Below, piece by piece: positions 57,401 to 60,400 of a stretch of DNA of 64,000 nucleotides (positions within the stretch are counted from its first letter, which is position 1; every line of letters begins with the position of its first letter). The notes beneath the pieces are model-generated. The model was not told the DNA's origin, searched no databases, and saw nothing but the letters and a program-made list of their open reading frames with translations. Source of the stretch: Hormiphora californensis (taxonomy: Eukaryota; Animalia; Ctenophora); NCBI GenBank assembly GCA_020137815.1, contig CM035356.1, positions 4,464,001-4,528,000 on the forward strand, given 5' to 3'. The position numbers and the translations under genes are program-made.

Positions 57401-60400
57401 TTAGGGGGCGGAGGAGTAGGAGTAGGAGGATGGGATGTGGAGGAGGTATTACAGTACAAGCTGGGTTGTAAGAGCAACCGCTACAGATGAGATGGATCCC
57501 CTTACTCGGGTCCACCTCCTGATAGCACTGCCCGTGAGAGGGGGAGCCACAGACTAAGCAAAGAACGTACCCAGAGCTCCAGCTCCCTGGACTTTGAAAA
57601 TCAAGGGATGAAGGGCCACTAGTGTTACATCGAGGACAAGTAACACCCAGTTTGAGGTCAAAGAATTCCATGATAGATGAGGCAAGTCCCGCCTTAGTAA
57701 CACCATCTTCTTCATTCAGGAAACATCTCCCAGGCATCTGAATTCCTAATGAATTTATTGATACATTTAACAGTCTCTAGGAAATCAGTAAGGAGTGGAC
57801 CCTTGTGTGCATTGACATTGATGAAACCATTGTTTTTGATGATGATATCGAGAATGTTTTTGACAATGGTTTTTCCAGAAAAGACTTTCACAGATAACAC
57901 AAGATCCTTAACCTTAATGAACATGATTATAGTTACTGTTGTGAGTAGTGGATAGTAGAAGGTTGATGTGTGGGGTCAGGAGATGTGATGATGTGAAGGA
58001 TTGAATGGAGTGAGTTCTTGACTTGGCTTGACGTGGCTTGGTCTTGAAGAGCTTGCTACAGGGTAGTGTGCGGCACTCTTTACATCATCGCACACCTCAA
58101 ATTAATTTGTTTAAAGTAGTGTTGAAAAGTTTGAAACAGTGTTGAAAAGTTTGAAACTGTACTTGTAATCCGGTCTAAAGTCATGACCCCACTGCCCCCC
58201 CCCCCACTGGCTCACACAACATACCTAGGTACTTGTAGTCTGGTCTAAAGTCATGACCCCACTGACTCACACAACATACCTAGGTACTTGTAGTCTAGTC
58301 TAAAGTCATGACCCCACTACCCCCCCCCCCACTGGCTCACACAACATACCTAGGTACTTGTAATCCGGTCTAAAGTCATGACCCCACTCCCCCCTGGCTC
58401 ACACAACATACCTAGGTACTTGTAATCCGGTCTAAAGTCATGACCCCACTGGCTGACACAATGGACCTCACAACATACCTAAGTATTTGTAATCCGGTCT
58501 AAAGTCATGACCCCACTGACCCCCCCCCCCCTCCCCACTGGCTCACACAACATACCTAGGTACTTGTAATCCGGTCTAAAGTCATGACCCCCACTGCCCC
58601 CCCCCCCCCCCCCACTGACCCCCCCCCCTTGGCTCACACAACATACCTAGGTACTTGTAGTCCGGTCTAAAGTCATGACCCCACTGCCCCCCCCCCCCAC
58701 TGGCTCACACAACATACCTAGGTACTTGTAGTCCGGTCTAAAGTCATGACCCCACTGCCCCCCCCCCCCCCCCACTGGCTCACACAACATACCTAGGTAC
58801 TTGTAATCCGGTCTAAAGTCATGACCCCACTGACTAACACAATGGACCTCACACAACATACCTAGGTACTTGTAATCCGGTCTAAAGTCATGACCCCACT
58901 GATCAGTGACCCCCCCCCTGGCTAGCTACATACCTAGGTACTTGTAATCCGGTCTAAAGTCATGACCCCACTGCCCCCCCCCCCCCCACTGGCTAGCTAC
59001 ATACCTAGGTACTTGTAATCCGGTCTAAAGTCATGACCCACTGACCCCCCCCCCCCACTGGCTCACACAACATACCTAGGTACTTGTAATCCGGTCTAAA
59101 GTCATGTCCCCCCTGGCTCACACAACATACCTAGGTACTTGTAATCCGGTCTAAAGTCATGACCCCACTGACCCCCCTCCCCTCCCCACTGGCTCACACA
59201 ACATACCTAGGTACTTGTAGTCCGGTCTAAAGTCATGACCCCCTGCCCCCCCCCCCCACTGGCTCACACAACATACCTAGGTACTTGTAATCCGGTCTAA
59301 AATCATGTCCCCACTGACCCCCCCCCCCCCCCCACTGGCTCACACAACATACCTAGGTACTTGTAGTCTGGTCTAAAGTCATGACCCCACTGACCCCCCC
59401 CCCCCCCACTGTCTCACACAACATACCTAGGTACTTGTAGTCCGGTCTAAAGGCATGACCCCACTGCCCCCCCCCCCCCCCACTGGCTCACTCAACATAC
59501 CTAGGTACTTGTAATCCGGTCTAAAGTCATGACCCCACTGCCCACTGAACCCCCACTGTCTCACACAACATACCTAGGTACTTGTAATCCGGTCTAAAGT
59601 CATGCCCCCACTGACTAACACAACACTGCCCCTTTTTTTTAGAATGAAGTATTTGCAATTTTGGCGATTTTGAGTTATTTATACCATCTTGATCAGGAGA
59701 AAAAGATCTACAAGATGGGCTAAGTCTCGTGTCTCAATCTTCAAAAAATAGAGTGAAGTGTTTTTTGTGAAGTACTTTTATTTTTGAAAAACTGCAGAAA
59801 AGTGAAGCAAATGGCAATTGCTTCGCTAATATAATTCGGAAATAAATACTGCTTCGTTAAACTTTTCTACCATAGAAGTAATAACCGCAGAAAAATTTGC
59901 TTCAGTTGTTTGCTTCATTTAAAAAATTCTATTGAAATACTTCAATCAGCTGCAGATTTTGTTTGAAGTATTGTCCACTCAGAAGATACTTCACTTCATT
60001 TACTTCAATTTGAAAATGCTTCATAAATCAGTTGCAGATTTTGTTTGAAGTATTTTCAAATCAGAAGATACTTCACTTCATTTACTTCAATTTGAAAATG
60101 CTTCATAAATCTGTGGAATTCAAATGCTTCTTGTCGCATCCAGAAAAAATACTTCATAACTTAAGAATACTTCATTTTTTATTATAATATGTGCCATTTA
60201 TAACACAAGGGAAGGGGGTGAGTTAGGAGGCAGGATGACCTGGGGAAGGGGGGTGAGTTAGGGGTCAGGATAACCTAGGGAAGGGGGTGAGTTAGGAGGC
60301 AGGATGACCTGGGGAAGGGGGGTGAGTTAGGGGTCAGGATAACCTAGGGAAGGGGGGTGAGTTAGGGGTCAGGATAACCTAGGGAAGGGGGTGAGTTAGG

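What the first reader, a model, noticed from the sequence alone, without database searches (positions are those of the whole stretch)
58096..58158. Full-length LINE capped by the host trans-spliced leader
Seen: the LINE 5' junction with the flanking array is exactly an SL-like sequence ending TTTGAG, preceded by a second copy of its first 21 nt. The LINE lies in the same orientation as its host gene RECQL. Established: ctenophores use SL trans-splicing; SL relics mark retroposed mRNA in dinoflagellates; NeSL and CRE/SLACS elements insert into SL genes, which is a different arrangement. Inference: the LINE RNA was trans-spliced and reverse-transcribed to the cap. The family may be promoterless, using host read-through plus trans-splicing to define and cap its 5' end, with the copied AG possibly regenerating an acceptor. 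Alternatives are a template switch onto SL RNA or capture of an SL gene, since the leader is followed by GT.
Basis: partly seen in the sequence, partly recalled or inferred. Interest (0 to 1): 0.88.

Follow-up and report, generated by a model that had tools for sequence, protein, structure and literature searches.

The report
Comb-jelly LINEs wear the spliced leader
A broken 5.4-kb jumping gene (LINE) in a comb-jelly genome begins with the short leader that these animals splice onto their messenger RNAs, and so do other copies and unrelated LINEs, so these elements likely copy themselves from leader-spliced RNA.

Summary
Confirmed, and wider than one copy. Window 58137-58096 (minus) equals positions 3-44 of the published Hormiphora spliced leader (SL); a duplicate of positions 2-22 precedes it. 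It heads a full-length but frameshifted APE+RT LINE inside a RECQL intron, on the host strand. The same SL|LINE junction appears in contigs of another copy (run X2) and of a second organism (X8; junction depth 411, body 431), though with only 24-26 leader letters. An exact-leader scan gave 96 loci: 84 mRNA-like, 1 true SL-RNA gene (with 5S rRNA), 8 LINEs of two lineages (about 26% RT identity) and 3 unclassified. All join at the exon end and none carries the SL intron, so SL-gene capture fails. Leaders stay host-identical while the adjacent UTRs diverge, and they lose 1-16 cap-proximal bases, as expected if trans-splicing renews the leader. That the elements lack a promoter and reuse the leader's own AG is untested. 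Partial precedents in print: SL on Hydra CR1 transcripts, six SL-TE fusions in Schistosoma, dinoflagellate relics. This scan noted SL-headed LINEs before in dinoflagellates, Perkinsus and Euglena.

The parts
58096..58137 (-). Spliced-leader copy, positions 3-44, joined to the LINE exactly at the exon's terminal AG
58138..58159 (-). Duplicate of the leader's 5' half (positions 2-22; C at 58159 is position 1 or target base)
57925..58095 (-). LINE 5' UTR, 171 nt; starts with GT but is unrelated to the SL-RNA intron; holds a start-stop mini-ORF at +8 and a 7-bp inverted repeat (58095-58089 with 58072-58066, seen by eye)
   Evidence: no Rfam family at a meaningful score
55747..57924 (-). ORF1, broken into three frames; PHD-like Cys cluster (by eye), CCCH-like fingers, Pro/Gln-rich repeats
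   Evidence: CCCH lead only, atlas scores 0.86 or less; 28-30% identity to ORF1 of L057
52822..55721 (-). ORF2, APE endonuclease + RT, one frameshift near 54330; 84-85% identical to intact 972-aa P0001
52774..52821 (-). Short 3' UTR ending in GTAA-type repeats, no poly(A)
58160..59640 (-). Host tandem array (5' flank); unit is a copy of the RECQL exon end plus splice donor
52245..52773 (-). Same array continuing in phase (3' flank)
63095..63271 (-). RECQL exon upstream of the host intron (intron 63094-50620, borders read by eye)
50545..50619 (-). RECQL exon downstream of the host intron (3' border approximate)

Best explanation
This LINE and several other comb-jelly LINEs begin with the host's spliced leader, most likely because their RNA is SL trans-spliced like a host mRNA and then reverse-transcribed to within a few bases of the cap. 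Shown: the leader's identity, its exact exon-end junction, its presence in other copies, a second organism and a second LINE lineage, and the absence of SL-gene intron or upstream DNA. Inferred: a primary transcript starting upstream of the element body (host read-through or an unknown promoter) receives a fresh SL; ORF2p primes at the 3' tail by microhomology, copies body and leader and stops 1-16 nt short; the next round of trans-splicing restores a whole, capped 5' end. The doubled 5' half here would be a slip or jump of the RT near the cap, or a later local duplication. Which acceptor is used (the relic's own GAG or a YAG in a leader-less source copy) is open.
For: Exact 42-nt match. Junction at the exon's last base in the window and in 11 of 11 non-SL-gene genomic-type loci. 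X2 record 16 joins leader and UTR and lacks 10 nt that the window has, so it is another copy or allele; X8 (organism B) record 30 has the same junction at depth 410.8 against 431 for the ORF1 contig. 8 loci are LINEs: 7 of one group (L016, L025, L028, L044, L060, L088, L095) with RT only 26-27% identical to the window's, plus L057 of the window's own ORF1 type. In the seven-member group the first 120 nt after the leader are 44-92% identical pairwise (shuffle mean 45%), yet the leader is host-identical over 28-43 nt; in 9 of 12 loci (window included) identity runs 14 or more nt beyond the 26-nt search pattern. Leaders start at positions 2-17, never in SL-gene upstream DNA. Hydra full-length CR1 transcripts carry an SL (PMC12220107).
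Against: No RNA shows the splicing event: none of the 84 mRNA-like contigs had RT or endonuclease hits. The two junction contigs have only 24 and 26 letters on the leader side, under the tool's 31-letter rule for bridging, and contig depth is not a copy number. The scan demanded an exact 26-nt leader, so LINEs with decayed or absent leaders could not appear; the share of full-length copies with a leader was not counted. The relic ends in GAG, whereas the three RECQL acceptors read here end in CAG. The species behind the metagenome loci is not shown, only the shared leader.
Confidence: 0.75

Rival explanations
1. The leader was captured once per lineage and is now part of the element, transcribed from an internal promoter and kept identical by selection, with no trans-splicing in each cycle.
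For: A GA(A/T)GTAA motif lies within 60 nt of the leader in 5 of 13 LINE-like sequences (window, L057, L091, L049, L007) and 0 of 83 mRNA-like ones (motif chosen after seeing them) and could be a promoter element. L057, L091 and L049 keep an acceptor-like TTTYAG right after the leader, which splicing at that site would have removed. A promoter role for leader relics is suggested for dinoflagellates (PMC12014239).
Against: Copies lose 1-16 nt of leader, which would erode it within a few cycles; leaders are identical across lineages whose UTRs are no more alike than shuffles.
Confidence: 0.12
2. The RT jumps at the end of synthesis from a leader-less LINE RNA onto SL RNA or a capped mRNA, adding the leader at insertion.
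For: The doubled 5' half in the window looks like a jump or slip; similar doubled leaders occur in other contigs (records 8, 24, 32). LINE template jumps such as U6-L1 chimeras are known (recalled).
Against: A jump would be expected to start at an RNA 3' end or at variable places (recalled), bringing SL intron or mRNA sequence; 12 of 12 junctions are at the exon's last base, and the junction is the same in two organisms.
Confidence: 0.08
3. The element captured an SL-RNA gene or inserts into SL genes, as NeSL and CRE-type elements do.
For: GT follows the leader.
Against: The SL gene (L062) continues GTAAG with a T-rich Sm-like motif and 5S rRNA; the LINE UTR has neither (46% against 45% shuffled). 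The flanks are an intronic array, and the enzyme is APE, not RLE. 7 of 84 mRNA-like contigs also begin GT.
Confidence: 0.03
4. One-off chimera or assembly artefact.
For: The locus is repeat-rich, and the window's 10-nt UTR variant was not seen in X2. Boroni et al. raised this doubt for Schistosoma.
Against: Same junction in two other datasets and the same arrangement in 8 other LINE loci; the array is in phase across the insertion.
Confidence: 0.02

Closest known systems
Hydra SL-trans-spliced TE transcripts (PMC12220107; passages and supplement legend read)
   Same: Full-length CR1 RNA with an SL at its 5' end; about 30% of TE Iso-Seq reads carry an SL.
   Different: RNA-level only; the passages seen do not report leader-headed genomic copies.
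Schistosoma mansoni SL-containing retrotransposons (PMC5832876; passages read)
   Same: Genomic SL exon merged to six TEs; authors suggest trans-spliced, retro-transcribed elements.
   Different: Left open as a possible misassembly; no family-level junction analysis in the passages seen.
Dinoflagellate SL-relic retrogenes (PMC12014239; passages read)
   Same: SL in DNA as the mark of reverse-transcribed, trans-spliced RNA.
   Different: Host genes rather than autonomous LINEs; relics pile up in tandem behind the new leader, whereas no second relic was detected here (12 of 13 not above shuffles, window p=0.04).
NeSL and CRE/SLACS SL-gene-targeting elements (PMC4640811 passages; SLACS recalled)
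   Same: Non-LTR element adjacent to SL sequence.
   Different: RLE enzyme and insertion into SL genes; here APE enzyme, dispersed sites, leader only at the 5' end.
CR1-group LINEs
   Same: Two ORFs, APE+RT, short repeat tail, no clear target duplication.
   Different: 5' end supplied by a host leader. Clade labels (CR1-like for the window, L2-like for the seven-member group) rest on recalled C-terminal motifs, not on named references.

Membership tests
Ctenophore spliced-leader exon | Identity to the published leader and to leaders on mRNA 5' ends | tested here: met
SL-RNA gene | GTAAG donor, SL intron, Sm-like site | tested here: not met
   against L062
SL-RNA gene | SL-gene upstream DNA and tandem unit with 5S rRNA | tested here: not met
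   flank is a RECQL-derived array
NeSL/CRE SL-targeting retrotransposons | Restriction-like endonuclease | tested here: not met
   N-terminal APE domain, no RLE family in Pfam
NeSL/CRE SL-targeting retrotransposons | Insertion inside an SL gene, rest of the gene on the 3' side | tested here: not met
   3' flank is the array; also not so in L028 and L044
APE-type LINE | ORF1 plus ORF2 with APE and RT, 3' repeat tail | tested here: met
CR1 clade within the CR1 group | RT phylogeny with named clade references | tested here: inconclusive
   Quick tree of 19 rows had no named clade references; nearest named protein Mnemiopsis hypothetical, 49%
SL-relic retrocopy | Leader joined at the exon end, 5'-truncated, in dispersed DNA | tested here: met
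   12 of 12 loci
SL-relic retrocopy | RNA intermediate shown to be trans-spliced | not testable with these tools
   Only contigs, no cap-selected or long RNA reads

The most novel reading that the evidence does not exclude
Ctenophore LINEs of several lineages have given up their own promoters: each copy's leader relic acts as its trans-splice acceptor, so any copy caught in read-through transcription gets a fresh capped 5' end. This makes a self-renewing cycle in which the host spliceosome defines the retrotransposon's 5' end, and most of the hundreds of genomic leader copies would be LINE heads.
Probability: 0.35. Interest if true: 0.82.

Novelty: new variant of a known kind. Interest (0 to 1): 0.6.

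Why it matters
LINEs must rebuild their 5' end every cycle; known answers are an internal promoter or read-through with a self-cleaving ribozyme (recalled). Trans-splicing would be a third, seen here in an animal and in more than one LINE lineage. It offers a testable account of the 718 (Hormiphora) and 491 (Mnemiopsis) genomic leader copies that PMC8527503 counts without classifying in the passages read, warns that SL-gene counts and 'shared first exons' are inflated by retrocopies, and gives a tag for full-length LINE insertions in ctenophore genomes.

Tried and rejected
No own genome is held, so copies could not be counted. An unbiased count of junction types in sequencing runs was not obtained, so whether a leader-less source copy exists is open. 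RNA-guess run X18 had no contig on 57500-58074: no evidence either way on expression. Ten runs with small word shares were listed; only X8 of them was laid. Viral contigs: 0 loci for P0001 and 0 for the leader. Rfam on 57400-58400: 4 weak matches, all far below gathering scores, so no known ribozyme or snoRNA. Hidden second relics behind the leader: not found. L007, L049, L086, L091 could not be classed: no informative Pfam hit for L007, L049 or L086 (L091 not scanned), 25 unnamed homologues of L007, atlas hits unnamed ctenophore clusters; L049 matches the L007 family. The careful tree did not finish; the quick tree has long-branch warnings and is used only for the deep split. Derelle 2010 is not held; supplements of PMC8527503 were unreadable and may classify the leader copies. 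Searches of earlier findings by place, sequence and animal words gave nothing.

Full report
Observation. On the minus strand, 58137-58096 is identical to positions 3-44 of the 44-nt leader published for Hormiphora californensis (PMC8527503, passages) and to the exon of an SL-RNA gene found here (L062). Positions 2-22 are repeated just upstream (58158-58138). The window is therefore likely from a pleurobrachiid ctenophore. There is no other leader copy in the 64 kb.

The element. Behind the leader come a 171-nt UTR, an ORF1 broken into three frames, an ORF2 with APE endonuclease and RT (Pfam) broken by one frameshift, and a short GTAA-type tail. An intact 972-aa relative, P0001, is 84-85% identical. 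The element (58159-52774) splits one unit of a tandem array, in phase, with 0-1 nt of duplication. It lies in a 12.5-kb intron of a RECQ1-like gene on the same strand. It is a full-length, dead copy.

Other copies of the family. No own genome was held. I laid 4 of 18 listed runs on 57500-58175. In X2 a 155-nt contig runs from the UTR into the leader and lacks 10 nt present in the window, so it is another copy or allele (depth 23.7; nearby body bins 19-28). In X8, a second organism whose element differs at 25 of about 350 sites, a contig with the same junction has depth 410.8 against 431 for the ORF1 contig and 328.7 for the neighbouring UTR contig. This fits most 5'-complete copies carrying the leader. 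Caveats: these contigs hold only 24 and 26 leader letters, below the tool's 31-letter bridging rule; depth is no copy number; no junction contig was displayed for X6; and only 24 of 114 loose ends were shown. X18 had no contig on the element.

Other families. An exact scan with the last 26 leader bases gave 97 matches in 96 metagenome loci. 84 have the leader at the contig start, as mRNAs do; none of these hit the window's RT, endonuclease or ORF1, and Pfam was run on proteins from only 24 of the 96 loci. Of the other 12, L062 is a true SL-RNA gene array (778-bp unit with 5S rRNA, GTAAG donor, T-rich Sm-like motif), and loose ends in X2 match its intron and upstream DNA (by eye). Eight are LINEs: L025, L028 and L044 have complete APE+RT ORF2s; L016, L060, L088 and L095 are linked to them by homology; L057 shares the window's ORF1 type and endonuclease. 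Three (L049, L086, L091) are unclassified. None is a recognisable retrocopy of a host gene. The seven-member group is only 26-27% identical in RT to the window's element. That these contigs are genomic is inferred from flanks and tails; L028, L044 and L086 have only 1-6 nt of 5' flank.

What the junctions say. In the window and all 11 non-SL-gene loci the leader ends at its last base and element sequence follows. Leaders begin at positions 2, 3, 3, 3, 3, 4, 4, 4, 5, 7, 10 and 17, never in SL-gene upstream DNA. The first 120 nt after the leader are 44-92% identical within the seven-member group and at or near shuffle level between groups. The scan could only find intact leader ends, but in 9 of 12 loci identity runs 14 or more nt beyond the pattern. 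A leader inherited as element DNA should drift with the UTR and erode from the 5' end; one renewed from host SL RNA should not. SL-gene capture fails: UTR and SL intron are 46% alike against 45% for shuffles, and GT follows the leader in 7 of 84 mRNA-like contigs too.

Mechanism. Most likely (0.75) the LINE RNA is SL trans-spliced and copied almost to the cap by target-primed reverse transcription. The splicing step itself was not seen. The acceptor is open. In a leader-headed copy the only AG at the junction is the relic's GAG, while three host acceptors read here are CAG. L057, L091 and L049 keep a TTTYAG just behind the leader, which fits splicing at the relic's AG or no splicing at all, but not splicing at that better site. 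A leader-less source copy is not excluded. Rivals: inherited leader with internal promoter (0.12), template jump at insertion (0.08), SL-gene capture (0.03), artefact (0.02).

Known systems. Hydra TE transcripts, including full-length CR1, carry SLs (PMC12220107, passages and supplement legend). Six SL exons merged to TEs in Schistosoma were suggested to be trans-spliced retro-transcribed elements or misassembly (PMC5832876, passages). Dinoflagellate retrogenes carry relics (PMC12014239, PMC7789003, passages). Truncated donor-less SL copies in Hydra are called probable pseudogenes (PMC7986045, passages). NeSL and CRE are RLE, mostly target-specific elements (PMC4640811, passages). PMC12460157 (passages) added nothing on this. 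Nine searches (listings only unless named above) showed no paper describing leader-headed LINE families in ctenophores; Derelle 2010 and the Hormiphora supplements could not be read, and repeat databases were not searchable. The scan's own notes report the same arrangement in dinoflagellates, Perkinsus and Euglena (unchecked).

Verdict. Real, repeated across copies and lineages, and a new variant of a known kind: the parts have precedents, while the pattern across LINE lineages in an animal genome and its link to the unexplained leader copies were not found in print. Interest 0.6; 0.82 if promoter loss and self-renewal at the relic's AG (probability 0.35) are shown.

Noticed in passing
window 52245-52773, 58160-59640, 63033-63144 (minus): The array that hosts the LINE is an amplified copy of the RECQL exon end plus its splice donor: 27 copies of the core, one in the real exon, the rest in the intron behind it. 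How the right donor is chosen is unexplained.
   Followed up: partly
L062 1-1945: SL-RNA gene and 5S rRNA gene share a 778-bp tandem unit on the same strand.
   Followed up: yes
L057, L091, L049, first 6 nt after the leader: An acceptor-like TTTYAG directly follows the leader in 3 of 11 non-SL-gene loci.
   Followed up: partly
window 58095-58036; L057, L091, L049, L007: Shared GA(A/T)GTAA motif near the leader, followed in L091, L049 and L007 by a 4-bp GC hairpin that L086 also has; 0 of 83 mRNA-like contigs have the motif (chosen after the fact).
   Followed up: partly
L049 1-1258 and L007: Leader-headed single-ORF elements; L049 ends in a short tandem tail. The protein's C-terminal half recalls LINE ORF1 (recalled), so they may be ORF1-only non-autonomous retroelements; L007 is mRNA-like.
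   Followed up: partly
L057, 351 nt upstream of the leader: A leader-headed LINE with non-coding flank in an assembly whose other hits are mRNA-like: possible unspliced read-through RNA, or DNA. A pyrimidine-rich CAG lies 4 nt before the relic.
   Followed up: no
records 8 (X18), 24 (X6), 32 (X8), laid on 58096-58158: Other contigs also align across both leader copies with a few differences (record 24 at depth 1118), so doubled 5' halves may recur.
   Followed up: no
X6, window 58006-58074: Depth over the start of the UTR (4100-5000) exceeds that over ORF1 (600-2400); related subfamilies or short non-autonomous derivatives may share the UTR.
   Followed up: no
window 48337-49659 (minus): A second, unrelated LINE RT fragment (35% to the main RT) between RECQL exons, same strand, no leader found.
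   Followed up: no
window 12048-15581 (+) and 29064-36332 (-): A 3.5-kb open frame of a ubiquitin hydrolase, and long uninterrupted frames for a ubiquitin-conjugating enzyme, a lipoyl ligase and a MARVEL protein on one strand.
   Followed up: no
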